Shown here one piece after another: positions 38,021-61,036 of a DNA stretch of 64,000 bases. Each line of letters starts with the position of its first letter. The first letter of the stretch is position 1. The translations under genes were made by a program, and so were the position numbers. This DNA comes from an uncultured Candidatus Saccharibacteria bacterium. Lineage in GTDB: Bacteria; Patescibacteriota; UBA1384; CAILIB01. The stretch is taken from assembly GCA_964593885.1 (NCBI GenBank), contig CAZQKK010000001.1, positions 233,929-297,928 on the forward strand. Direction: 5' to 3'. The notes beneath the pieces were generated by a model. That model saw only the letters and a list, made by a program, of their open reading frames with translations, was not told the DNA's origin and ran no database searches.

Positions 38021-38095
38021 GCGGGTATCGTATAATGGTTATTACATCACCTTGCCATGGTGGAGATACGGGTTCGATTCCCGTTACCCGCTCCA
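38021..38095 (+). tRNA. tRNA-Gly(GCC): tRNA-Gly (anticodon GCC)
   Basis: GCGGGTA..TCACC-TTGCCAT-GGTGG..ACGGGTTCGATTCCCGT-TACCCGC-T-CCA. Confidence 0.8.
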
Positions 38096-38132
38096 AGATG
38101 AACTAACAATTCAAACGCGTGGAGCACCACAC

Positions 38133-38206
<74 letters not shown>

Positions 38207-38219
38207 ATAGTCCCCTCAT

Positions 38220-38438
38220 ATGCTTGCACTGCAAATTGTTCACATCATCATCTCAGCCCTCCTAGTAGCTAGCATCCTGCTCCAGCAACGAAGTAGCGGT
38301 TTGGGTGAAGCTTTTGGTGGCGATTCAACTGTTTTCAGTAGCCGTAGAGGTGTTGAAAAGATTCTCTACTACGCAACTATCGTCTTTGGCGTTAGTTTCG
38401 GAGTAATTGCTATCCTCCAGCTCATCATCGGCGGGTAG
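38220..38438 (+). CDS. secG: Preprotein translocase subunit SecG
   Basis: 72 aa, two TM helices flanking a Gly-rich loop (LLQQRSSGLGEAFGGDSTVFSSRRGVEKIL). Lies immediately upstream of a tRNA-Leu, as secG does in E. coli. Confidence 0.7.
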   Translation: MLALQIVHIIISALLVASILLQQRSSGLGEAFGGDSTVFSSRRGVEKILYYATIVFGVSFGVIAILQLIIGG

Positions 38439-38452
38439 GCAGAAAGGTTTCT

Positions 38453-38539
<87 letters not shown>

Positions 38540-38554
38540 CGACTCTTACAACCT

Positions 38555-38629
38555 GCCGAAGTAGCTCAGTGGTAGAGCAGTGGCCTGAAGAGCCTCGTGT
38601 CGTCAGTTCGATTCTGACCTTCGGCACCA
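38555..38629 (+). tRNA. tRNA-Phe(GAA): tRNA-Phe (anticodon GAA)
   Basis: GCCGAAG-TA-GCTCAGTGGTAGAGC..loop CTGAAGA..GTTCGATTC..CTTCGGC-A-CCA. One 28:42 mismatch in the anticodon stem. Confidence 0.75.
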
Positions 38630-38688
38630 TGAAAATTTGGTAGAATAGTTGAGAAAGTTTGATAGAAACAATCGCCCGGAGAAAGGAT

Positions 38689-38760
38689 TCTGTAAACTAT
38701 TGAGCGTACACCGTAGGTGTACATACAGATACTTCCACTAGCGATTTGTTTACAGAATAC
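38689..38760 (+). other. Structured spacer: 11-bp inverted repeat enclosing an internal 7-bp palindrome, between tRNA-Phe and tRNA-Val
   Basis: ATTCTGTAAAC ... GTACACCgtaGGTGTAC ... GTTTACAGAAT. Confidence 0.4.
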
Positions 38761-38768
38761 TTTCGTAG

Positions 38769-38844
38769 GGGCTCTTAGCTCAGTTGGTAGAGCGCCTCGT
38801 TTACACCGAGGATGTCAGAGGTTCGAGTCCTCTAGGGCCCACCA
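38769..38844 (+). tRNA. tRNA-Val(UAC): tRNA-Val (anticodon UAC)
   Basis: GGGCTCT-TA-GCTCAGTTGGTAGAGC-G-CCTCG-TTTACAC-CGAGG..AGAGGTTCGAGTCCTCT-AGGGCCC-A-CCA. Confidence 0.8.
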
Positions 38845-43166: not shown

Positions 43167-43252
43167 TCACCTCACAACACGAGTAGGTGGGGCTATTTTT
43201 TTAATTGACCATAGAGTATAAATTGGCTATAGTAGCCAGTATCAAATACCCC

Positions 43253-44530
43253 ATGGCAACCACCGAACTCACCCCAAAGCAGCAGTTTGCCGAACTGGTT
43301 AAGAACAGCCAGTCTATTTTGCTCGTTACCCACCACAATCCAGATGGGGACGCTGCAGGCTCAATCCTCGCCATGAAGCTTGGTCTCGAGAAGCTAGGTA
43401 AAGATGTAAGTGTTGTTGCAAGCGGAGATGCCCAGGAACCTCTCGCCTTCCTCCCTTCTTTCAGCTCCCTCAAAGAAGAGGTTTCACTCCAGAAAGAACT
43501 CCTCATTGTCCTTGATGAGACCCAGGCCAAAATTGGCAACATTTCGCTTAAGCGAATTGCCGAGAACAAGCTGGTTGTTGTGGTTACCCCTAAAGGTGGC
43601 ACCATCACTCCTTCAAATGTCAGGATTGAAGAGGGAAGTTTCAAGGTAGACCTCATCATCGCCCTTGATTGTGCCAACCTCGAGCGCGTAGGCAACCTGT
43701 ACGAAGAGAATACTGAACTCTTCTACGAAGTCCCTGTCGTCAACATTGACCACCACGCTTCAAACAACAACTTTGGTAAGGTAAATCTGGTAGATATCAC
43801 AGCTTCCTCTACTGCAGAAATCCTGGTCTCGCTCCTTGAAACCATCGGGAAAGATGTCACCGGAATGATTGATGCTGAGATTGCCACCTGTCTCCTCACT
43901 GGAATCACCACAGACACCGGTAGCTTCCAGAACGCCAATACCACTCCTAAGTCTCTCACCGTTGCCGCTCAACTAGTTGCTGCTGGAGGCCGTCAACAGG
44001 AAATTATCAAGCACATCTTCAGAACTCGCTCACTCTCAACCCTGAGACTCTGGGGTAGGGCACTCTCATACATCAAGGAAGACAGAGACCTAGCCTTTGC
44101 CTGGTCAACCCTTTCAAAGGCCGACTTTGTTGCTGCTCAAGCATCACAAGAAGAGTCTTCTGGCGTTATCGATGAGCTGCTGAAAACTGCCATGGGTATG
44201 AACTTTGTCCTCCTGCTTTCTGAGCGAGAAGGATCACTGCATGGCTCTTTCCGCGCCGTGAACCCTAGTACAGATGTTTCAGTGCTTGCCACCCTCTTTG
44301 GTGGAGGTGGTCACCCACAAGCTGCAGCCTTCAGTATGGCAAACGCTAACCTGAAAGATCAGGAAAATGAGGTTATCAAGAAGCTTCGAGAGCACCTCAA
44401 CGATCCAGTAGAAAAGCCCCAAGAGCCTTCTACCCCTCAAAAATCTACACCAAAACAGGTAAAGCAGCCTGAAAGCATCTTGAAGGATGGGGAAGAGACT
44501 GTGGTTTCGCTCCCAGAGCCATCTGCTTGA
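43253..44530 (+). CDS. DHH-family phosphoesterase (NrnA-like nanoRNase / pAp phosphatase) with low-complexity C-terminal tail
   Basis: DHH motif LLVTHHNPDGDAAGS. DHHA1 motif GGGGHPQAAAF. C-terminal KPQEPSTPQKSTPKQ tail. Start at the Met after a possible promoter (track ORF 43205). Confidence 0.7.
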   Translation: MATTELTPKQQFAELVKNSQSILLVTHHNPDGDAAGSILAMKLGLEKLGKDVSVVASGDAQEPLAFLPSFSSLKEEVSLQKELLIVLDETQAKIGNISLKRIAENKLVVVVTPKGGTITPSNVRIEEGSFKVDLIIALDCANLERVGNLYEENTELFYEVPVVNIDHHASNNNFGKVNLVDITASSTAEILVSLLETIGKDVTGMIDAEIATCLLTGITTDTGSFQNANTTPKSLTVAAQLVAAGGRQQEIIKHIFRTRSLSTLRLWGRALSYIKEDRDLAFAWSTLSKADFVAAQASQEESSGVIDELLKTAMGMNFVLLLSEREGSLHGSFRAVNPSTDVSVLATLFGGGGHPQAAAFSMANANLKDQENEVIKKLREHLNDPVEKPQEPSTPQKSTPKQVKQPESILKDGEETVVSLPEPSA

Positions 44531-51135: not shown

Positions 51136-52110
51136 GTGGATAGCCTTGTTGCTCACCTTCGTGAGCATAGCCGCTTCATCCTCGTATCTCATGTCAGGCC
51201 TGATGGGGATGCGGTAGGGTCGCTCCTAGGTCTCTCGTACGGCCTCCACCAACTGGGAAAGGAGGTGACTCCTGTTCTTGTTGATGGTGTACCGAAAGCT
51301 TTCACGTTTTTGACTGATCGAATCCTCCCTGTACAAGAAGTACTTCCTAAGCCAGATACTGAGAGCATCTGCGTGCTCCTTGATGCCGCTGATGCCTCTC
51401 GGTGTGGTGATAGGGAAACCCTGCGCGAGTACGCAAATCGTCAGCGACTCATGGTTATCGATCACCACCCACTTGGTGATCTAGAGCCGAAAGCCCTTGC
51501 CTACTTTCACAACCTGGAAGCCTCCTCTACCTCAGAGATGGTTTACCATATTCTCGTTCAGCTTGGGTGCAGGATTACCCCGCAGATTGCGACATGCCTC
51601 TACTGTGGGATGTACACAGACACATCAGGCTTTAGGCACAGCAACACGACAACTACCACACTTGAAGTTGCCGCCGAACTCCTCAAACGGGGAGCAAACT
51701 TACGAAAAATTGTTGCTGAAATAGGTCAACAGAAGAGCATCTCAAGGTTACGCCTTACAGGTATTGCTATGCGGCGTGTCATGGTGAGCAAACGTTGGAA
51801 TACTGCATACTCGGTAGTGCAGCACGCTGATATTCTGGAGAACGAAGCAACTCCCGATGACGTAACGGGGATTGTGAACCAGGTGAGCGTCTTACCTGGT
51901 GTATCAAGCTTCATGATGCTCACCGAGGAGAAACCAGGAGTAATTAAGGGATCACTCAGAGTACCAGATGGAACTAAGCACAAGATTTCAGTGAGACCGC
52001 TTGCTAAGCTACTTGGCGGTGGTGGTCACAGCAGTGCGGCTGGGTTTGAAATCACCGGTTCGCTCAACCATACTGATGGGGCACATGGGGGGAGTTGGCG
52101 AGTAGACTAG
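51136..52110 (+). CDS. DHH-family phosphoesterase (NrnA-like), second paralogue
   Basis: DHH motif ILVSHVRPDGDAVGS, DHHA1 motif GGGGHSSAAGFE. Confidence 0.7.
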   Translation: MDSLVAHLREHSRFILVSHVRPDGDAVGSLLGLSYGLHQLGKEVTPVLVDGVPKAFTFLTDRILPVQEVLPKPDTESICVLLDAADASRCGDRETLREYANRQRLMVIDHHPLGDLEPKALAYFHNLEASSTSEMVYHILVQLGCRITPQIATCLYCGMYTDTSGFRHSNTTTTTLEVAAELLKRGANLRKIVAEIGQQKSISRLRLTGIAMRRVMVSKRWNTAYSVVQHADILENEATPDDVTGIVNQVSVLPGVSSFMMLTEEKPGVIKGSLRVPDGTKHKISVRPLAKLLGGGGHSSAAGFEITGSLNHTDGAHGGSWRVD

Positions 52111-52238: not shown

Positions 52239-52532
52239 CTAGCGCGGACGCTTGAGGAAGCTTCCTGCAAACACTGAAAGTAGGATTCCAGTTCCAAGGC
52301 AGCTTGCTGCTGTCCAGAGTGCCGGAACCGCATACAGTGTCAGGTTGTCAGTCAGTGAAAAGAATAGGGCGACTAGGAGGAATAGAAAACCGAATAGCGA
52401 AATGCCACCTGCAATCAGAATGAGCACCACACCAGCGGCAAGCTTCTTGAGGTATGGAGCGAGGGGTGAAACCGCACGCTTAACCGAGTACTCAATCTGC
52501 TCCTCTAAGAGTGCACCAAAAAATTTGAACAC
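52239..52532 (-). CDS. YqjE-like (DUF1469/holin-X-like) small membrane protein
   Basis: 97 aa, two TM helices. Sits directly downstream of a DUF883 gene, as in the E. coli yqjD-yqjE pair. Confidence 0.45.
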   Translation of the reverse strand: MFKFFGALLEEQIEYSVKRAVSPLAPYLKKLAAGVVLILIAGGISLFGFLFLLVALFFSLTDNLTLYAVPALWTAASCLGTGILLSVFAGSFLKRPR

Positions 52533-52536
52533 TTGG

Positions 52537-52848
52537 TTAGTCTCGTGACTTTCTGATCAAGAAACCGAGGAGGAGACCAACGGCACCTGCAACTGCTGCA
52601 ACCTGCCAAGGATTCTCTTCTGCATAGGCTTGCGTCTTATCAGCTGCAAGCTTTGCTTTCTCTCTTCCCATTTCACCGTAGTGTCGAGCCTTGCTCATGA
52701 GGTGCATCATTTTTTCACGAGCATCTTCTACTTCTTCCTCAAATAGCTCTTCACCTTTTTCCACACCCTTACCCACAAGTTGAGAGACATCCCTACGTAG
52801 TGCCTCCAGGTCTCGCTTTAGGTCCTTGAGTTCTGTGTTTCGTTCCAT
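52537..52848 (-). CDS. DUF883 (ElaB/YqjD/YgaM-like) ribosome- and membrane-associated protein
   Basis: Coiled-coil N-terminus. C-terminal ENPWQVAAVAGAVGLLLGFLIRKSR is the characteristic DUF883 TM tail. Confidence 0.65.
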   Translation of the reverse strand: MERNTELKDLKRDLEALRRDVSQLVGKGVEKGEELFEEEVEDAREKMMHLMSKARHYGEMGREKAKLAADKTQAYAEENPWQVAAVAGAVGLLLGFLIRKSRD

Positions 52849-52905: not shown

Positions 52906-53418
52906 ATGCAGCTTCCTTTCACTCTCTTTGAGCCGTATACTAGTCATATGCAGTTTCAGGTGCCGCAAAACATCGCAATGGAGGATCGAATTGTTGGTCC
53001 GCTAACGGTGATACAGTTCGTCATCGTCGTAGTTGGTGGTGGAATCGCGTTTTTCATCTTCAACCAAAACTCACTCCCACCTGTTCTCACTAGGAGCGTA
53101 GCCGGAAGCATCGCCCTCCTCACCGCAATCATTGCAATCGGGAAATTCAATGACCAGCCGATGTACCGGTTTTTCAAGTACATCATTGCATTTGTTATCA
53201 CGCCTAAAACCAGGGTTTGGCACAAGAACGGTGGAGAGGTAAACCTGATCAAGCCGAGCGAAGCTAAAGATGAGGGTTCGCACCTCCACGCTCCAAAACG
53301 GGTTTCTAAGGCCGACATTGCTCGCCTAGCAAGCGTACTCGATAGTAGGGGAAGAGAAGGAAGTCTACCCCGAGTTACATCCCCTAGTTCACCTCAAAAG
53401 AGCAGCAAGAATCCATGA
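52906..53418 (+). CDS. PrgI-family / VirB3-like type IV secretion membrane protein
   Basis: Two TM helices (LTVIQFVIVVVGGGIAFFIF, SIALLTAIIAIG) then KYIIAFVITPKTRVW. Position immediately upstream of the VirB4-like genes. ATGA overlap with the next gene. Confidence 0.5.
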   Translation: MQLPFTLFEPYTSHMQFQVPQNIAMEDRIVGPLTVIQFVIVVVGGGIAFFIFNQNSLPPVLTRSVAGSIALLTAIIAIGKFNDQPMYRFFKYIIAFVITPKTRVWHKNGGEVNLIKPSEAKDEGSHLHAPKRVSKADIARLASVLDSRGREGSLPRVTSPSSPQKSSKNP

Positions 53419-54251
53419 GCACAAACGTTCACTCAACTCAGGATCACCTCCCCATCGCTGGAATCCAGGATGGCGTGGTTATTATGAATGACGGCAGCCT
53501 CCGTGTGGTTCTGAAAGCCGAACCTGTCAACTTTGAGCTGAAATCTGAGAACGAGCAGAATGCCATCATCTACAGCTACCAGTCGTTCCTCAACTCTCTA
53601 GACTTCCCTATCCAAATTCTCATTCAGTCTAAGAAGCTTGATCTCGAGCAGTACCTCATCAGGATGCAAGAGAACGAGAAGCTCCTCACCAACGAGCTCC
53701 TCAAGATTCAGATTAACGATTACACAGGATTCGTGAGACGCTTGATTAGTGTTGCCAACATCATGGCAAAGCGTTTTTACGTAGTGATCAGCCACAGCAT
53801 CGTGAACAAGCACACGAGCATGAACCAGATTAACTCGCTCATCCCCCACAGGCCAACCGGGCCACTCTTAGAGCAGAATGAGTTTGACCTCATGAGATCA
53901 GAAGCTTACAACAAGGCGGGAATTGCTGCGGGAGGACTGAGCAGGCTAGGTGTTAAGGCAAGTGCCCTAGAAACCCAGGAACTGATTGAGCTCTTCTATG
54001 CCATCTACAACCCGGATGTGGCAGCTGAGGAGCGTCTGACAAGCCTCCAGAACCTCAGCACCGGTATCGTAACCTCACCCGAGGCTGAAGCACTTGCGGT
54101 AGAGCAGATTATTAACCAAGCAGACGCCCTTACAAACGCTACTATGCCGCCAGCCCCTGAAGCAACACCTAGAGAAGTACCAGATGAGATGTTGGTAGAT
54201 ACCATGCCAGGCGACACACTGCCAATTGAGAACCAAGAACCGGAGGTTTAG
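53415..54251 (+). CDS. VirB4-family N-terminal region (first part of a VirB4-like protein interrupted by an in-frame TAG)
   Basis: N-terminus IAGIQDGVVIMNDGSLRVVLKAEPVNFELKSENEQNAIIYSYQSFLNSL resembles the start of Gram-positive VirB4 homologues (TraE/PrgJ/TcpF type). Same reading frame as 54255-56051. Confidence 0.45.
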   Translation: MSTNVHSTQDHLPIAGIQDGVVIMNDGSLRVVLKAEPVNFELKSENEQNAIIYSYQSFLNSLDFPIQILIQSKKLDLEQYLIRMQENEKLLTNELLKIQINDYTGFVRRLISVANIMAKRFYVVISHSIVNKHTSMNQINSLIPHRPTGPLLEQNEFDLMRSEAYNKAGIAAGGLSRLGVKASALETQELIELFYAIYNPDVAAEERLTSLQNLSTGIVTSPEAEALAVEQIINQADALTNATMPPAPEATPREVPDEMLVDTMPGDTLPIENQEPEV

Positions 54252-54254
54252 CAC

Positions 54255-56051
54255 ATGAAATTTCCATTCTTCAATAAATCTAACGGTGATGAGGCGGTAA
54301 TTGCCCAGCAAGACGCTGCCCTTTCTGCATACCAAGAAGGTCTCACCACTACCCGTGACATCATTGCCCCTTCTGATTTCCTGGTAACTACCAACTACAT
54401 CCAGCTTGGGACCTACTTTGTGAGGACCATTTTCGTCTACACCTACCCAAGGTTCCTCAACACCAACTGGCTCTCACCAATCATCAACTACGACTTCACG
54501 ATGGACATAAGCATGTTCATCATTCCTGAGGACGGTAGACAGGTAATGGAGTCGCTCAAGCGAAAGATGACCCAGCTTGAATCAACTAGAATGGTTGAGC
54601 AGGAGAAGGGATTAGTGCGAGACCCTGAGCTTGATACCGCCATCCACGACATCGACGAGCTCCGCGAGAGCCTCTCCCAGGGGCAGAACCGCCTCTTCCA
54701 GTACTCGCTCTACTTCACCATCTACGCAAAGAGCCTTGAGGAGTTGAACACCTTGAGCAAACAGCTTGAGTCTACCCTAGGAGGATCGCTCATTTACACC
54801 AAGGAGGCGGTTGTCCAGATGGAGCAAGGATTCAATTCCACCATTCCAATCATGTCTGATCAGCTGAGTATCCTGCGTAACCTGGACACCGCCTCACTCT
54901 CAACAACCTTCCCCTTCTCCTCAGCTGAGCTCACCTCAGACAACGGCATCCTCTACGGCATTAACCGTCACAACGACTCGCTCATTCTGTTTGATAGGTT
55001 CAACCTAGAGAACGCAAACTCTGTGGTGTTTGCCACATCTGGCGCTGGAAAGTCCTACTTCGTGAAGCTTGAGATTCTGAGGTACCTGATGCTCGGAACC
55101 GACGTGGTAATTATCGACCCAGAAAATGAGTACCAGAAACTAGCCGAGGCTGTGGGAGGTAACTACCTCGAGATTAGCCTCAACTCTGCCCAGAGAATCA
55201 ATCCTTTTGATCTCCCCGTTACTAGCCACCCAGAGGATGAGGCTGAAGATCTGCTTAGGTCTAACATCACCACCCTCCACGGTCTCATTAGGTTGATGGT
55301 AGGAGGACTTACCCCTGAGGAAGATGCATTGCTTGATAAGGCCCTCTACGAGGCATACGCGCTTCGCGATATCACCTCTGACCCCTCAACCCAGAGGAAT
55401 ACTCCCCCAGTTATGTCAGACCTGATTGCAGTTCTTGCAAACCTTAGGGGTGCCGAGAACCTCATTCTTCGCCTAGGCAAGTACGTTGAGGGAACCTTTG
55501 CCAACCTGTTCAACCAGCCTACCAACTTTAAGCTAGACAGCGGCCTCGTAGTCTTTTCAGTACGAGACCTTGAAGAGTCTCTTCGCCCCATTGCCATCTT
55601 CATGATCCTCAACTACATCTGGAATAACGTGAGGGCTGAGATGAAGCGAAGGCTCATGGTAGTTGATGAGGCGTGGTGGATGATGCAGTACGAGGACTCT
55701 GCCAGGTTCCTCTACGGCCTAGCCAAACGTGCCCGTAAGTACTTCCTTGGCCTCACCATCATTTCGCAGGACGTTGAAGACTTCCTTGCCAACAAGTACG
55801 GGAAGGCAGTGGTATCAAACTCGGCTATGCAGATCCTCTTGAAGCAGAGTACCTCGTCAATTGACGTGATTAGCCAGGTATTCAACCTCACTGAGCAGGA
55901 GAAGTACCTCCTCATTAACGCCTCGGTAGGGGAAGGGCTCTTCTTTGCTGGTCTCAACCATGTGGCAGTAAAGATTACCGCCTCCTACACTGAGGATCAG
56001 ATCATTACCTCAGACCCAAAGCAGCTCTTAGCAATGCGTTCAGCCTCGTAA
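54255..56051 (+). CDS. VirB4/TraC/CagE-family type IV secretion ATPase (ATPase part)
   Basis: IAPSDFLVTTNYIQLGTYFVRTIFVYTYPR domain, Walker A VVFATSGAGKSYFVK, Walker B RLMVVDEAWWMM, ISQDVEDF. GGAGG RBS 9 nt upstream. Confidence 0.8.
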   Translation: MKFPFFNKSNGDEAVIAQQDAALSAYQEGLTTTRDIIAPSDFLVTTNYIQLGTYFVRTIFVYTYPRFLNTNWLSPIINYDFTMDISMFIIPEDGRQVMESLKRKMTQLESTRMVEQEKGLVRDPELDTAIHDIDELRESLSQGQNRLFQYSLYFTIYAKSLEELNTLSKQLESTLGGSLIYTKEAVVQMEQGFNSTIPIMSDQLSILRNLDTASLSTTFPFSSAELTSDNGILYGINRHNDSLILFDRFNLENANSVVFATSGAGKSYFVKLEILRYLMLGTDVVIIDPENEYQKLAEAVGGNYLEISLNSAQRINPFDLPVTSHPEDEAEDLLRSNITTLHGLIRLMVGGLTPEEDALLDKALYEAYALRDITSDPSTQRNTPPVMSDLIAVLANLRGAENLILRLGKYVEGTFANLFNQPTNFKLDSGLVVFSVRDLEESLRPIAIFMILNYIWNNVRAEMKRRLMVVDEAWWMMQYEDSARFLYGLAKRARKYFLGLTIISQDVEDFLANKYGKAVVSNSAMQILLKQSTSSIDVISQVFNLTEQEKYLLINASVGEGLFFAGLNHVAVKITASYTEDQIITSDPKQLLAMRSAS

Positions 56052-56055
56052 ACCT

Positions 56056-56496
56056 ATGCGCAAACTGTTCCTCTCACTCCTTCTAGCACTGTGCATTCTT
56101 GCACCATTTAGTGGGTCGGTTACTAGTGTACGTGCAGAAAAAATAGAGGAGGTAAGCTTAGGTAGGGACAAAAACGGGAACCCAACAAGGGTGGAGAAGA
56201 ATTGCTACTGGGATAAAGATACGAAGGGTATCCTCGTTGACTACAAAGTTGTTCAGGGAACAGCCCCAGGTAGTGAAAAGGTCTTCACGTGCTACCTGAG
56301 GGTTTTCCTAGCCGGAAACAGCGCACTCATCGTCACTGTTGCGGTGATTATTGTGGTGTTTTCAGGCATCCAGTACATGCTTGCCCTTGGAAACAGTGGC
56401 ACCCAGGCTAAGGCGAAGCAACGCGTGGTAAGCGTTCTTACGGGAGTTGTTTTTCTAACCCTCATCAGGTTCTTCCTAACGATAATCAAGGGGTAG
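56056..56496 (+). CDS. VirB2/TrbC-like pilin family protein (T4SS-linked paralogue 6)
   Basis: Signal peptide. Two TM helices separated by a Lys-rich loop (ALGNSGTQAKAKQR). Confidence 0.5.
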   Translation: MRKLFLSLLLALCILAPFSGSVTSVRAEKIEEVSLGRDKNGNPTRVEKNCYWDKDTKGILVDYKVVQGTAPGSEKVFTCYLRVFLAGNSALIVTVAVIIVVFSGIQYMLALGNSGTQAKAKQRVVSVLTGVVFLTLIRFFLTIIKG

Positions 56497-56497
56497 C

Positions 56498-57757
56498 ATG
56501 GAGCCTTCCCGCGCCAAAGCAAACCCATTCAAGAAAAAGCAGCAGCGCTCAAGGGTTCTCCTGATGACACTGGCGGCGGCCTCTCTCCTTGTAATTTCTG
56601 GAGGATTCTACCTCTACCTACGATCTCAAGAAACCGGCATTCTCATCTTAGACAGTACTAAGAACCTGGTGGTAAGCCTTAATGGCAGGCAGGTGCAAAC
56701 CCAAACTCAATCACGAGGTATCTTCGTCCCGGTGTACTCTGGCACCTATCGCCTACAAATTGACAAGCCAAACTACCAACCATTTATCACCGATGTCACC
56801 ACTGAGCCTGGGGATATTGCTGAGATTAGGCCGGCATTTACCCTAGTTCCCAGCTTAAAGGAGGCAGTCGGAGATGCTGTTGATTTTGTTCAACCTTCAT
56901 TTGATGAGAAGTACGTCTACTACCTGGGCGATTTTAGGCAGCGCCTCTTCAGGTACGATGTAGCCGCCCAGCAGAGTACGCCACTCACCATAGAGGCACT
57001 CAACGGTGTGAGGGATGTCCAGTGGGGTGGAAACCCTGAAGTTGCCCTTATCGTTCAGGCTGATGGGACCTACCTCCATGAGGTTCCCACCTTTGACTTT
57101 AAGCACCAGATCTTTGCAAAGGTTGCCGGCCCTGAAGTTGTATCACCCATTTGGGATCCAATGAATTCAGAACGTCTTGCTGCTGCCTACATTACACCTA
57201 GAGGAGAGCGGTCTCTCATCACCTCTGATAAGAGATTTACCTCAATTAGCAGACTGGCTAGCCTTGATAGCATTCCTAACCCAGATATCACCTGGTCTCC
57301 TGATGGGAATCTTCTCCTCCTGAGAGGGGTGGACAGCAACCCACAGCGAAATAACCTCTGGCTCTACCGTATGGCCACTGCTGAGTTCACCCAGCTCACC
57401 TCAACTGGAGGTGTTACTTCTGCCTCATTCAACCCAACCTCAGAAAAGGTACTCTACGATACGAGCCTCTCTTCGGGAAATCAGCGCGCCGTTATCACCA
57501 TTGCCGATCAGAGCACCTCACAGCTACCGCTAGATGGCGTAGGTAGTGCGATCGCCTGGAAGGATGCAGGTAGCTACTTCGCCCCAAGCTCTGGCGGTTC
57601 TCTCAACCTTGTTACCCTACAGGGAGCGGTTACCACCTTCCCGATTACCATTCCTACACAGGAAGAAATCACATCACTGACCTACGTAAGCAGCTTAAAG
57701 CGTCTGGTGTTTGCCACCTCAACTGCCGTTTACAGCATAGATCTAGAGAGTAACTAG
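56498..57757 (+). CDS. Membrane-anchored protein with PEGA-like domain and TolB-like beta-propeller repeats
   Basis: N-terminal TM. PEGA-like segment LNGRQVQTQTQSRGIFVPVYSGTYRLQIDKPNY. Repeated ..SPDG../..DP.. blade motifs (ITWSPDGNLLLL). Confidence 0.4.
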   Translation: MEPSRAKANPFKKKQQRSRVLLMTLAAASLLVISGGFYLYLRSQETGILILDSTKNLVVSLNGRQVQTQTQSRGIFVPVYSGTYRLQIDKPNYQPFITDVTTEPGDIAEIRPAFTLVPSLKEAVGDAVDFVQPSFDEKYVYYLGDFRQRLFRYDVAAQQSTPLTIEALNGVRDVQWGGNPEVALIVQADGTYLHEVPTFDFKHQIFAKVAGPEVVSPIWDPMNSERLAAAYITPRGERSLITSDKRFTSISRLASLDSIPNPDITWSPDGNLLLLRGVDSNPQRNNLWLYRMATAEFTQLTSTGGVTSASFNPTSEKVLYDTSLSSGNQRAVITIADQSTSQLPLDGVGSAIAWKDAGSYFAPSSGGSLNLVTLQGAVTTFPITIPTQEEITSLTYVSSLKRLVFATSTAVYSIDLESN

Positions 57758-57758
57758 T

Positions 57759-59801
57759 ATGCCAGTTCTTGAACCACCTACTGACGACTTGACTAGGCGA
57801 GTAACTAGTGACGAGCTATCCCCAGATGGCCTAGATTTGGATACTGGAATTAACCCCCTAGTAGACCAGCCGCTGTTTATTGGTGAAAACAGAGCTCCTG
57901 GTATCCAACCCAACCCAGCTAACAGCAACTCAGCCGATCAACGTGAGAAGAGTTTCCGCGACGAGTACCGCGATCGGAAACAGGCAAAGAAGGATGGCAC
58001 AGAGCCTCGCGGTAAAGAGCTCCCTTCTACAAAGAACCAGCACGCAATTACCCCTCAAGATCAGCAGCTCATTAGTCAAATTGAGGAGCTGGTAAAGAAC
58101 AAAAAGTACGGCCGTGCGCTCGCCATGATTGCTGGCAACCCAAAGGTGAGAGAGCTGATGCGTAGCAAGGTGAGCGAGATTAGGAACCAGATGGCCCTTG
58201 AGGCTGCCAAGGCTAGGGTGAAGATGCTCATCAAGAACGCAATCAGGAGTGCTGTAATGGACATCTTAGTTGCGACCTCACCGTGGTGGGAGATTATCCT
58301 CGTGGTGATTCTCTGTATCATCGCTCTCGTGATAGGAATTGCCATCATGATGAGTAGACCAGTTGATAACCCTCCAAGCGACGTTCCTCTGGGCATAACT
58401 AACGGTAACGAAACTGGGGTTTACCTGAGCAGTAGCATCATGACGCCAAGCATGAAGGTTAGTGACAACTCTGGGAAAACTAATGCGAGAACGCGAGAGC
58501 TCCACCTTGAAACCACCGCTGGTGGTTGGAGCCCAGAAGAGGCTGTAGATGCTCGAGGAAGCAACTGGTGTATTCCTGGAAAGGGATGCCTATCCATGGG
58601 AAGCATTCTTGGCGGGAGCGTTACTGAAGAAGACATGGAGAGCTACGCAACTGCGCGTTTTCCCTACGTGTATGGCTTTGACTTTGACTACCGTGGATCT
58701 AAAGATGGAGCGCCAAGGCAAGGTTGGGGAGAGATGAAAGACTACGCCGGGAAAAAGATCATAATGTTCAATCCAAAGACAAAGAAAGCAGTTGTGGCTT
58801 TGGCTGCAGAATTTGGACCTGCACCATGGACCGGAGTCTGCGCGGATCGAGATTCTGGATCAAATAACTCATCGAATAAGCGCATTACCGTTCCGTGCAG
58901 TGAGCAACGAACATCATGGAATGCCCGTGATGTCGTTGCAGGCCCAAAGAGCCGCACTATACCCAAAGACCTCCGTGCATACGACATCACCCCTCCTGCC
59001 GGCTACTCTGGCCGTATTGCAGGAGGAGAGCCAAAACTTGCTGCAAAAATCGGGATTGGTACTGACCAAGTGGTGATCATCGGTTACGCTGCCGATCAGA
59101 GTTTAAAACCCGGCACCGTTCTCACCATCAAAGATTCTGACATCCTTACCGTAGGAGGCGGTGAGAAACGTGTTGCAGGTGTCCTTCCGGTACCTGGAGT
59201 CTCCGAGGGTCAAAAGAGTGACTGTGGTGATGCTAGTGGTGTCATGACGGCTCTCTACTACGCATCAGATAAGGGTGCAAAAACCCTCACCTACGACCAG
59301 CTCCCACCGGGAATAAAGAACCAGGTTGAGGTGGTTCCACCAGATTTGCAGGCAACAGCTGGTAGGTTTAAAACAAAATCTACCAACGGTGCAGGGGTTT
59401 GCTTGAGTCCTAACTTCATCAACCAGATAAGCGGTTCAGGTGGCGATTGGCAATTTGTCAGCAAAGTCACTGAACCTAAGGGCTTTGAAAAAGCAGTCAC
59501 ATCTATAAAAAATGGAGATCCTGTCGTCATGTATACCCGCGCAGGTGGGTTCTACGGAAACACACAACACATCTTTGTTCTCGTCGGTTACGATGAAACA
59601 ACCAAAGAGTTTATTGTAAACAACCCAACCTGTAATGGTGCAGCTGCTAATGGTGGAAAGTGTACCCCACCAGAGGTAAATGTTGGAATTAAGGGTGGAG
59701 AAGCAGGAGCACCGAGACTGTCATTTGAACACCTCTTTAACTACCAGGGATCTGGGACGTACGGTCATTCTCTAATCATTCGTAAGAAATGGTGGCAGTA
59801 A
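57759..59801 (+). CDS. Membrane-anchored protein with C-terminal papain-like (peptidase C39-like/CHAP-like) domain; candidate cell-wall hydrolase of the secretion apparatus
   Basis: Central TM (IILVVILCIIALVIGIAIMM). Candidate Cys (GKGCLSMGSILGG) and C-terminal His motif HIFVLVGYDETTKEFIVNNP as in C39-like peptidases. Confidence 0.4.
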   Translation: MPVLEPPTDDLTRRVTSDELSPDGLDLDTGINPLVDQPLFIGENRAPGIQPNPANSNSADQREKSFRDEYRDRKQAKKDGTEPRGKELPSTKNQHAITPQDQQLISQIEELVKNKKYGRALAMIAGNPKVRELMRSKVSEIRNQMALEAAKARVKMLIKNAIRSAVMDILVATSPWWEIILVVILCIIALVIGIAIMMSRPVDNPPSDVPLGITNGNETGVYLSSSIMTPSMKVSDNSGKTNARTRELHLETTAGGWSPEEAVDARGSNWCIPGKGCLSMGSILGGSVTEEDMESYATARFPYVYGFDFDYRGSKDGAPRQGWGEMKDYAGKKIIMFNPKTKKAVVALAAEFGPAPWTGVCADRDSGSNNSSNKRITVPCSEQRTSWNARDVVAGPKSRTIPKDLRAYDITPPAGYSGRIAGGEPKLAAKIGIGTDQVVIIGYAADQSLKPGTVLTIKDSDILTVGGGEKRVAGVLPVPGVSEGQKSDCGDASGVMTALYYASDKGAKTLTYDQLPPGIKNQVEVVPPDLQATAGRFKTKSTNGAGVCLSPNFINQISGSGGDWQFVSKVTEPKGFEKAVTSIKNGDPVVMYTRAGGFYGNTQHIFVLVGYDETTKEFIVNNPTCNGAAANGGKCTPPEVNVGIKGGEAGAPRLSFEHLFNYQGSGTYGHSLIIRKKWWQ

Positions 59802-61036
59802 TGAGGTCAGAAGCAACGTATACTGGTGGCATGAGACGTGTCTCTGGAAATACCACTCTCATCGTTGCCGCAGTTGTTGTGGCTGTAGTCCTCATAGTAG
59901 GGGGTGCTTTTGTGGTTGGCATTGGGAGCAATCCTGCAAACCCAGTTCGAGACCAGCAAGACCCAAAACCTGTAGACCTCACTAACTCAGAAACCCAAGC
60001 CCTCTCAAAATCGCTCAGTGCAAAAATTGATAGCTGTGCCGCAATCAGAGAGAACGAGAAGTTCCTTACTGAACTCTCAGACAGCCTCACTGACGAGGGG
60101 AGTATCGGCAAGTACATCACCACCAACGTGACAGATAAGGCAAAGCGCGATGAACTCAATACCCTTCGCCAAGAAGCAAACGCTGCCCTCCAACTCCTCA
60201 TCACAAAGGGTGCTGAGTGTAGTAACAGTAAAACCGCTACTAACCTTGATAAAGAGGTGAGTGACCTCTGGGCAACTACGAGGCAAAAGATCAGCATCCT
60301 CCAGGCTGCTCTCGTGAAGTCACTTGCTGGAAAGTACTACTTCCCAGGTGTTGAGCAGGGAGCAGATAACTACTGTCAGCAGGCTGCAGCAGCTATGGTA
60401 GCCCTTACCTACCTCAGCAACTATGGTGCCACCCCTATAACCCAGCTAGATGCAGCTACTCTTCCAGCGAGCCTCCAGGAAGCTCTCGGTGGTAACTCTA
60501 GTGTAGGTGAATACCCTGCAGGATGGGCGAAGTTCAATAATGATCCTGAAAAAGTTCGGGCCGCGGTTGCCAACCGTGCCAGTATTGCATGGTTTACAAC
60601 CCCAAAGAATCCTAAATCTTGTCCAGTTGGTGACATGCACTTTGTGGTACGGCTATTCAAATCCATTGGTGCACCCATGCCAGATGACTGGGCCTACATT
60701 TCAGATGACGGATACCGAGGAATTATCACACCGGACTACAAGACTTCAGATCCTGGCATTAGAGATAAAGTGTATGCAGCTGTAAAGCTTTCACTCACAG
60801 CAGTCCCTCCTGATCCAGTTGTTGCTGACTTTACCAACCTTGGAGCCTGTAGCTACGGTCACAATATTCCACTATTCATCTTTAACGGAACTCGTTTTAT
60901 TACCAATAACCCAGGTAAAGGAAATGTAAAGTACAACCAAACAACCTGTGGGAGGAAAGAGCTCTCAGAGGAAAACGTAAAGAAGTTCGCTCGAATGGTT
61001 GTGCGTAAGAAGTACCTAACTCAAGTTGGGCTCTAG
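59789..61036 (+). CDS. Second membrane-anchored papain-like (C39-like) peptidase-domain protein
   Basis: TM (TTLIVAAVVVAVVLIVGGAFVV), Cys motif YCQQAAAAMVALTYL, His motif GDMHFVVRLF. Overlaps the upstream stop; the true start may be 59801 or 59831. Confidence 0.4.
   Translation: MVAVMRSEATYTGGMRRVSGNTTLIVAAVVVAVVLIVGGAFVVGIGSNPANPVRDQQDPKPVDLTNSETQALSKSLSAKIDSCAAIRENEKFLTELSDSLTDEGSIGKYITTNVTDKAKRDELNTLRQEANAALQLLITKGAECSNSKTATNLDKEVSDLWATTRQKISILQAALVKSLAGKYYFPGVEQGADNYCQQAAAAMVALTYLSNYGATPITQLDAATLPASLQEALGGNSSVGEYPAGWAKFNNDPEKVRAAVANRASIAWFTTPKNPKSCPVGDMHFVVRLFKSIGAPMPDDWAYISDDGYRGIITPDYKTSDPGIRDKVYAAVKLSLTAVPPDPVVADFTNLGACSYGHNIPLFIFNGTRFITNNPGKGNVKYNQTTCGRKELSEENVKKFARMVVRKKYLTQVGL

What the first reader, a model, noticed from the sequence alone, without database searches (positions are those of the whole stretch)
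53415..56051. VirB4-like gene split by an in-frame TAG codon
ORFs 53415-54251 and 54255-56051 are in the same reading frame (54255-53415 = 840 = 3x280). They are separated only by TAG-CAC before the second ATG. The first part has the typical N-terminus of Gram-positive VirB4 homologues; the second has the VirB4 middle domain and the Walker A/B ATPase. Combined length is 876 aa, which is full-length VirB4 size. The second part has a good GGAGG RBS, so this could be a genuine two-subunit VirB4, a recent nonsense mutation (pseudogenisation), a sequencing error, or stop-codon readthrough.
Basis: seen in the sequence. Interest (0 to 1): 0.55.

Follow-up and report, generated by a model that had tools for sequence, protein, structure and literature searches.

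The report
Two-gene VirB4 of a CPR bacterium
The "split" VirB4 is two ordinary neighbouring genes, a TrsD-like VirB4 N-terminal module and the VirB4 ATPase; this pairing is conserved and already described across Patescibacteria, and their shared reading frame here is coincidence.

Summary
ORF A (53415-54251, 278 aa, stop TAG) and ORF B (54255-56051, 598 aa) share a frame and are separated by TAG-CAC. GGAGG lies 8 nt before B's ATG.

A matches the N-terminal ~130 positions of full-length VirB4 profiles, and its model hits only TrwK/VirB4. B matches the rest of those profiles. A+B aligns collinearly (aa 5-876, 53% identity) with natural single-chain 863-910 aa proteins from another Patescibacteria clade.

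The split is old and conserved:
- All 120 best homologues of A are stand-alone proteins of 194-340 aa.
- In 78 of 79 orthologous CPR loci A and B are separate genes. The A-to-B frame relations are 22/30/26, all three stop codons occur, and spacings run from overlaps to hundreds of nt.
- The closest syntenic relatives have a 4-nt overlap, a 3-nt gap and a 4-nt gap.
- TAG is the commonest stop in the window.

pSK41 has the same trsC-trsD-trsE order and the same breakpoint. Quinonero-Coronel et al. 2025 already report TrsD homologues next to virB4 throughout Patescibacteria.

Verdict: a genuine two-gene VirB4 module. It is not a pseudogene, a sequencing error or a readthrough site. It is already known, so interest is low.

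The parts
52906..53418 (+). PrgI-family (VirB3-like) small membrane protein, 170 aa. Its TGA stop overlaps A's ATG (ATGA).
   Evidence: Pfam PF12666 PrgI, E 7e-9. Two hydrophobic segments at aa 28-46 and 59-77, and the ATGA overlap. Same position in relatives and as trsC in pSK41.
53415..54251 (+). ORF A: stand-alone TrsD-like / 'TraC-like' (PF26593) protein, 278 aa, homologous to the first ~200 residues of full-length VirB4.
   Evidence: NCBIfam: aa 5-134 match N-terminal positions of TIGR00929, NF045971 and NF045975, and match NF041427 TrsD/TraD. hhalign against pSK41 TrsD gives E 1.6e-5 over 180 columns. The AF2 model's top 14 Foldseek PDB hits are all TrwK/VirB4. 1455 homologues; the best 120 are all 194-340 aa.
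53442..54029 (+). Folded, conserved core of A (aa 10-205).
   Evidence: pLDDT is mostly 77-95 in this region, with one low loop at aa 131-150 (56-59). The invariant columns lie here.
54030..54248 (+). Variable, Pro/Glu/Gln-rich C-terminal tail of A, predicted disordered (aa 206-278). In fused relatives it corresponds to the interdomain linker.
   Evidence: pLDDT is below 60. Length and sequence are not conserved among homologues. It aligns to the low-identity linker of P0209.
54242..54246 (+). Shine-Dalgarno GGAGG for B, inside the last codons of A.
   Evidence: Sequence. GGAG-type motifs sit 7-10 nt before B's ATG in the close relatives L082-L084.
54249..54251 (+). TAG stop codon of A, an ordinary terminator.
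   Evidence: TAG ends 29 of 63 long ORFs in the window. Orthologues use TAA 55, TAG 16 and TGA 7.
54255..56051 (+). ORF B: VirB4 ATPase lacking the first N-terminal subdomain, 598 aa. Walker A at 55032-55055, Walker B at 55653-55670.
   Evidence: Pfam P-loop_TraG/AAA_10/DUF87. NF045971 (CD1110 family) scores 365.9 bits against a cutoff of 325, matching profile positions 184-732 of 752. PDB 4ag5 TpsVirB4 CTD, E 5e-49. Aligned from residue 1 with pSK41 TrsE.
56056..56496 (+). T4SS pilin-like small membrane protein, the next gene of the operon.
   Evidence: Pfam PF18895, E 3.5e-5, below the gathering score. Three hydrophobic segments. Conserved position in relatives.
56498..61036 (+). Three further tightly packed co-directional genes (419, 680 and 415 aa). 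The 680-aa protein has a Peptidase_C39_2 domain. They are presumably further T4SS components.
   Evidence: ORF list. Pfam. Synteny in relatives. Function was not tested.

Best explanation
The region holds two separately translated genes of a chromosomal Patescibacteria (CPR) type IV secretion operon: PrgI/VirB3-like, then A, then B, then a pilin-like gene and three more. A is a TrsD-family ('TraC-like') protein that corresponds to the first ~200 residues of canonical VirB4. B is the rest of VirB4: the second part of the N-terminal domain plus the RecA-like ATPase. A terminates at a normal TAG. B starts 3 nt later at its own ATG, behind a GGAGG that lies inside A's last codons, so the two are probably translationally coupled. 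Shown here: the homology of A and B to consecutive parts of VirB4, the conservation of the split, and the lack of any frame conservation. Inferred: A binds B non-covalently and, like the VirB4 N-terminal domain in R388, contacts the VirB3-like PrgI at the membrane, so that PrgI+A+B together make the complete VirB4 energising unit. The shared reading frame in this genome is coincidence.
For: (1) Collinearity. A aa 5-134 matches positions 6-126 of 792 in TIGR00929 and 11-134 of 752 in NF045971. B aa 30-570 matches positions 184-732 of 752 in NF045971, and aa 32-555 match 220-726 of 792 in TIGR00929. (2) The AF2 model of A is folded over aa 10-205. Its 14 best Foldseek PDB hits are all TrwK/VirB4 of R388 (E 1e-4 to 3e-3) and the next hit is unrelated at E 0.017. 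(3) The concatenated A+B aligns in one BLASTP segment (aa 5-876) with the natural 873-aa protein P0209 at 53% identity. About 48 such 863-910 aa fused proteins are among the top 120 hits, and L048 is a fused locus. This is Rosetta-stone evidence that A and B act as one unit. (4) The split is conserved. All 120 best A homologues are 194-340 aa. 78 of 79 GTDB loci from Berkelbacteria, Saccharibacteria, Magasanikbacteria, Falkowbacteria, Uhrbacteria and Kerfeldbacteria have A then B as separate ORFs, with frame relations 22/30/26 (chi-square p = 0.54) and stops TAA 55, TAG 16, TGA 7. (5) The closest syntenic relatives (A 79-84% identical) have a 4-nt ATGA overlap, a TAA plus 3-nt gap, and a TAA plus 4-nt gap. 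Each has a GGAG before B's ATG. (6) pSK41 has the same order, trsC-trsD-trsE. TrsD aligns with the A family end to end (hhalign E 1.6e-5), and TrsE aligns with B from residue 1 of both proteins (E 4e-43), so the breakpoint is the same. (7) Literature. [quoted passage not shown] Southlakia epibionticum as essential. In R388, VirB3 wraps around the VirB4 N-terminal domain (aa 15-400), and that domain mediates VirB4 dimerisation (PMC9259494).
Against: No direct evidence of an A-B or A-PrgI interaction was obtained. An AF2 model of the concatenated chain was too poor to judge packing: mean pLDDT 60, pTM 0.44, and the B N-terminal region below 50. A's score against the curated TrsD/TraD model is far below its cutoff (32.5 bits against 200), so the link to staphylococcal TrsD is remote homology. 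The local Pfam copy gave no hit for A; PF26593 is known only from precomputed annotations of its homologues. [quoted passage not shown]
Confidence: 0.85

Rival explanations
1. A recent nonsense mutation has interrupted a once-continuous virB4, so the gene is a pseudogene or in the process of becoming one.
For: Single-chain relatives of 863-910 aa exist in another Patescibacteria clade. The window's two ORFs are in frame, with only TAG-CAC between them.
Against: The fused clade is only 49-53% identical. Every relative with B at 70% identity or more is B-only, at about 600 aa. 78 of 79 orthologous loci are split, with random frames. The closest relatives are split with different stops and frames. 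B has a conserved ATG and SD. A's homologues are conserved as stand-alone proteins down to 43% identity. pSK41 shares the same breakpoint.
Confidence: 0.02
2. A sequencing or assembly error created a false stop.
For: None specific. This is a single base-level feature in what is probably a metagenome-derived genome.
Against: A Logan assembly of run SRR12404947 (L085) is 100% identical over 3176 nt, including the TAG, although it may come from the same sample. All relatives also have a stop at this position, so the stop is expected here.
Confidence: 0.01
3. Programmed readthrough or recoding of TAG yields a fused full-length VirB4, either exclusively or as a minor isoform.
For: The geometry is in frame with a 3-nt spacer. 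The same in-frame short-gap geometry occurs in some relatives: L083, L003, L004, L027, L043 and L073. Fused natural proteins show that a covalent link is tolerated.
Against: Frame relations across split orthologues are uniform at 22/30/26, and the nearest relatives include +1 and +2 arrangements. There is therefore no selection for in-frame continuity. TAG is the most common ordinary stop in the window. The stop identity varies among TAA, TAG and TGA, and no conserved downstream context was seen.
Confidence: 0.03
4. A is an unrelated accessory protein that merely sits upstream of a complete short VirB4.
For: Pfam (local copy) found no domain in A. B alone passes the NCBIfam CD1110 VirB4 cutoff. 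T. pseudethanolicus VirB4, the closest solved relative of B's ATPase domain (4ag5), is from memory also a short protein of roughly 600 aa; this was not checked here.
Against: A matches the N-terminal positions of four VirB4/TrsD profiles, and B matches only from position ~184-220 onward. A's model hits only TrwK/VirB4. A+B is collinear with single-chain homologues carrying PF26593 plus P-loop_TraG.
Confidence: 0.05

Closest known systems
TrsD + VirB4 pairs of Patescibacteria T4SS (Quinonero-Coronel et al. 2025, Microb Genom, PMC12102498; essential in Ca. Southlakia epibionticum, Wang et al. 2023 as cited there)
   Same: Same phylum-level group: the nearest loci are Berkelbacteria. Same gene pair next to PrgI/VirB3-like and pilin-like genes, and a chromosomal location among housekeeping genes.
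   Different: Nothing substantive. This window is one more instance. The in-frame TAG-plus-3-nt junction is one of many junction variants.
TrsC-TrsD-TrsE of staphylococcal plasmids pSK41/pGO1 (MPF_FATA, pGO1 subclass), covered by NCBIfam NF041427 (TrsD/TraD family)
   Same: Same gene order, VirB3-like / TrsD / VirB4. TrsD aligns with the A family over its whole length. TrsE and B align from residue 1, giving the same breakpoint.
   Different: The homology is remote: 22% identity over the hhalign columns, and A scores 32.5 bits against a cutoff of 200 for NF041427. The plasmid system is conjugative, whereas the CPR system is chromosomal and reported as essential for epibiotic growth. A has an extra disordered Pro/Glu-rich tail.
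Single-chain VirB4/TraC-type ATPases (R388 TrwK, PDB 7o41/8rtb; C. difficile CD1110 family; the fused 863-910 aa Patescibacteria clade with PF26593 + P-loop_TraG)
   Same: A+B together are collinear with these proteins. A's fold matches TrwK, and B's ATPase matches TpsVirB4 and TrwK.
   Different: In the window the first ~200 residues are a separate polypeptide.
VirB3-VirB4 fusions (for example in Campylobacter plasmids, as cited in PMC12102498)
   Same: They show that the VirB3/VirB4 N-terminal module is prone to gene fusion and fission.
   Different: The direction is opposite (fusion, not fission) and the boundary is different. No VirB3-VirB4 fusion occurs here.

Membership tests
TrsD/TraD family and Pfam PF26593 'TraC-like' (stand-alone VirB4 N-terminal module) | Sequence match to the family profile | tested here: inconclusive
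   NF041427 gives E 6.9e-8 and 32.5 bits, far below the curated cutoff of 200. hhalign of the A family against pSK41 TrsD gives probability 79% and E 1.6e-5 over 180 columns. PF26593 is precomputed for all 120 listed homologues, including one 94% identical to A, but the local Pfam copy returned no hit for A itself.
TrsD/TraD family and Pfam PF26593 'TraC-like' (stand-alone VirB4 N-terminal module) | Small stand-alone protein encoded immediately upstream of virB4 and downstream of a VirB3-like gene | tested here: met
   The order PrgI-A-B is seen in the window, in 78 of 79 loci, in close relatives and in pSK41.
TrsD/TraD family and Pfam PF26593 'TraC-like' (stand-alone VirB4 N-terminal module) | Homology to the N-terminal portion of VirB4 | tested here: met
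   Matches to N-terminal positions of TIGR00929, NF045971 and NF045975. Foldseek returns only TrwK/VirB4 at the top. Collinear with fused relatives.
VirB4 ATPase (ORF B) | VirB4-type P-loop ATPase domain with Walker A and Walker B | tested here: met
   P-loop_TraG, E 4.9e-29. 4ag5, E 5e-49. NF045971 scores 365.9 bits, above its cutoff of 325. Motifs ATSGAGKS and LMVVDE.
VirB4 ATPase (ORF B) | Complete N-terminal domain in the same polypeptide | tested here: not met
   B starts at profile position ~184 of 752 (NF045971) or ~220 of 792 (TIGR00929). The missing part is encoded by A.
Pseudogene by recent nonsense mutation | Close orthologues carry an uninterrupted gene, and the downstream part lacks its own start signals | tested here: not met
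   All relatives with B at 70% identity or more are split. Junctions vary. B has a GGAGG and an ATG.
Programmed stop-codon readthrough / recoding | The in-frame stop and the downstream frame are conserved among orthologues | tested here: not met
   Frames are 22/30/26, p = 0.54. Stops are TAA, TAG and TGA. TAG is a common terminator in the window.
Programmed stop-codon readthrough / recoding | A readthrough product is detectable | not testable with these tools
   This needs proteomics or ribosome profiling.

The most novel reading that the evidence does not exclude
Keeping the VirB4 N-terminal subdomain as a free polypeptide could be functionally exploited. For example, only a subset of VirB4 copies in the machine (the PrgI-bound 'central' ones) might carry A, or A might dissociate to regulate assembly. 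Alternatively, in genomes with an in-frame short-gap junction like this one, low-level TAG readthrough might add a minor covalently fused isoform. The coexistence of split and fused clades within Patescibacteria would then reflect two mechanistically different machines.
Probability: 0.05. Interest if true: 0.45.

Novelty: already known. Interest (0 to 1): 0.1.

Why it matters
The main value is for annotation. Gene callers and curators should not flag this junction as a frameshifted or disrupted virB4, and should not merge the two ORFs. The 278-aa gene should be labelled a TrsD-like / VirB4 N-terminal-domain protein rather than 'hypothetical'. Biologically, this is one more example of the conserved two-piece VirB4 in the Patescibacteria T4SS. 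That system is reported as essential for their epibiotic lifestyle, and the role of the TrsD piece is still untested experimentally.

Tried and rejected
(1) An AF2 model of the concatenated A+B chain, built with 47 natural fused homologues as the alignment, gave mean pLDDT 60 and pTM 0.44, with aa 210-376 and 452-523 below 50. That is too poor to judge how A packs on B, so I did not run a fold search on it.

(2) The local Pfam scan found nothing for A. The family name came only from precomputed annotations (PF26593 'TraC-like').

(3) A PDB sequence search with the concatenation hit only the ATPase part. The N-terminal relation needed profiles and the fold search.

(4) My first junction script reported L073 as fused. 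Inspection showed that tblastn had read through a TGA-TAG double stop, so L073 is split with an in-frame 3-nt gap. Only L048 is truly fused. I recomputed the statistics.

(5) Guglielmini et al. 2014 is cited by the 2025 paper for the TrsD-VirB4 homology, but its main text does not contain the word TrsD. I therefore rely on the 2025 paper's statement and on my own tests.

(6) I considered TAG reassignment and rejected it, because 29 of 63 long ORFs in the window end in TAG.
Full report
**Observation**

ORF A runs from ATG 53415 to TAG 54249-54251 (278 aa). CAC follows, then ORF B runs from ATG 54255 to TAA 56049-56051 (598 aa), in the same frame. GGAGG lies at 54242-54246, 8 nt before B's ATG. 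A's own ATG overlaps the TGA of the upstream gene (ATGA). B carries Walker A (ATSGAGKS) and Walker B (LMVVDE) motifs.

**Context**

The neighbourhood is a tightly packed co-directional operon:
- 52906-53418: a PrgI-family (VirB3-like) protein with two hydrophobic segments.
- A, then B.
- 56056-56496: a T4SS-pilin-like protein.
- Three further genes up to 61036, one with a Peptidase_C39_2 domain.

The rest of the window is chromosomal housekeeping: a ClpB-like protein, PNPase, FtsK, ribosomal protein S1, DHH phosphoesterases and 12 tRNAs. The nearest relatives are Candidatus Berkelbacteria and other Patescibacteria/CPR genomes.

**What A and B are**

B is a VirB4 ATPase:
- Pfam P-loop_TraG/AAA_10/DUF87.
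- E 5e-49 to the crystal structure of the T. pseudethanolicus VirB4 C-terminal domain (4ag5), with weaker hits to R388 TrwK.
- 365.9 bits against the NCBIfam CD1110 VirB4 model, whose cutoff is 325.

B matches these full-length profiles only from position ~184 of 752 (NF045971) or ~220 of 792 (TIGR00929) onward. A supplies the missing part. Its residues 5-134 match positions 6-126 of TIGR00929, 11-134 of NF045971 and 101-239 of the Mycoplasma ICE VirB4 model. They also match the TrsD/TraD family model NF041427 at E 7e-8, which is below that model's cutoff.

An AlphaFold2 model of A, built from 40 homologues, is confidently folded over aa 10-205 and has a disordered tail. Its 14 best Foldseek hits in the PDB are all TrwK/VirB4 chains of the R388 T4SS (E 1e-4 to 3e-3). 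The next hit is unrelated, at E 0.017.

The concatenated A+B aligns in a single BLASTP segment (aa 5-876, 53% identity) with a natural 873-aa protein, P0209. The A/B junction falls in a poorly conserved Pro/Glu/Gln-rich linker.

**Is the split recent, an error, or recoded? No.**

- Homologues of A: there are 1455, and the best 120 (down to 43% identity) are all stand-alone proteins of 194-340 aa. They share a conserved ~220-aa core and a C-terminal tail of variable length.
- Survey of genomes: a scan of one genome per GTDB species found at least 594 loci. Of the 80 fetched, 79 have a B homologue directly downstream of A.
- Split versus fused: in 78 of these 79 the two are separate ORFs. One, L048, is a true fusion of 896 aa.
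- Junctions among the 78 split loci: the A-to-B frame relation is 22 (same frame), 30 (+1) and 26 (+2), with chi-square p = 0.54. Stops are TAA 55, TAG 16 and TGA 7. Spacing ranges from overlaps to several hundred nt.
- Closest syntenic relatives (A 79-84% identical, same S1/DHH/PrgI neighbourhood): L082 has an ATGA overlap, L083 has TAA plus 3 nt in frame, and L084 has TAA plus 4 nt. Each has a GGAG motif before B's ATG.
- TAG is the commonest stop in the window, ending 29 of 63 long ORFs.
- A Logan assembly of a public run reproduces the junction exactly over 3176 nt. It may derive from the same sample as the window.

The shared frame in this genome is the one-in-three coincidence expected for any adjacent gene pair.

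**Fused relatives**

Searching with the concatenation shows two groups. Every protein whose ATPase part is 70% or more identical to B is B-only, at about 600 aa. A more distant Patescibacteria clade (49-53% identity, about 48 of the top 120 hits, 863-910 aa) carries PF26593 'TraC-like' and P-loop_TraG in one chain. This is classic Rosetta-stone evidence that A and B work as one unit. It also shows that both architectures are viable.

**Known counterparts**

pSK41 has the same order: trsC (VirB3-like), trsD (227 aa) and trsE (672 aa). The A family aligns with TrsD end to end (hhalign probability 79%, E 1.6e-5). B aligns with TrsE from residue 1 of both proteins (E 4e-43), so the breakpoint is the same.

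Quinonero-Coronel et al. 2025 (PMC12102498) report the following:
- TrsD was the most abundant T4SS component they retrieved in Patescibacteria: 2,272 homologues, 1,664 of them associated with virB4.
[quoted passage not shown] - The TrsD homologue of Ca. Southlakia epibionticum is listed as essential.

The arrangement is therefore already described.

**Mechanism**

Shown here:
- A and B are homologous to consecutive parts of VirB4.
- They are separately terminated and initiated.
- They are tightly linked, and the linkage is conserved.

Inferred:
- The short junction, with the SD inside A's 3' end, couples their translation.
- A binds B non-covalently to complete the VirB4 N-terminal domain.

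By analogy with R388, A (as the VirB4 N-terminal part) probably docks on the VirB3-like PrgI at the membrane. In R388, VirB3 wraps around the VirB4 N-terminal domain (aa 15-400), and that domain mediates VirB4 dimerisation (PMC9259494).

I tried to test the packing with an AF2 model of the concatenated chain. The model was too poor to use: pLDDT 60, with the region corresponding to B's N-terminal part below 50. The interaction remains inference.

**Verdict**

The interpretation 'genuine two-subunit VirB4' is supported. Pseudogene, sequencing error and readthrough are rejected. The arrangement is already known in Patescibacteria and in pSK41/pGO1-type plasmids, so interest is low. The practical value is for annotation: do not merge the two ORFs or flag them as disrupted, and name A as a TrsD-like VirB4 N-terminal-domain protein.

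Noticed in passing
Proteins P0188-P0240; locus L048 5956-8643: A distinct Patescibacteria clade encodes the same two parts as a single 863-910 aa protein (PF26593 TraC-like + P-loop_TraG), 49-53% identical to A+B over 99% of its length. Split and fused VirB4 architectures therefore coexist within the phylum. I did not determine which state is ancestral, or whether one genome can hold both.
   Followed up: partly
window 53415-54251 versus 54255-56051, compared across L001-L080: A evolves much faster than B. In L001 A is 55% identical and B 84%. In Saccharibacteria loci A is ~44% and B ~67%. This is consistent with the N-terminal module being the less constrained part of VirB4.
   Followed up: no
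window 52239-52848 (- strand): Two small divergent ORFs lie just upstream of the T4SS operon. One (52537-52848) has a DUF883_C glycine-zipper region. The counterpart of the other in relatives is annotated Phage_holin_3_6. The pair is syntenic in close relatives. Function is unknown.
   Followed up: no
window 38021-38841: A cluster of five tRNA genes lies within ~820 nt on the + strand. There are 12 tRNAs in the window overall.
   Followed up: no
window 43205-44530 and 51136-52110: There are two DHH/DHHA1 phosphoesterase paralogues within 8 kb. The second sits immediately upstream of the T4SS region and is syntenic in relatives.
   Followed up: no
window 53675-56850 = L085 (Logan SRR12404947_345517): A public-run assembly is 100% identical over 3176 nt. 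This suggests the window's source organism, or the same sample, is present in SRA run SRR12404947.
   Followed up: partly
L073 6640-6650: In this Patescibacteria locus A ends with a double stop (TGA TAG) followed by ATT and then ATG, in frame with B. tblastn read through it and made the locus look fused. This is a caution for automated fusion calls.
   Followed up: yes
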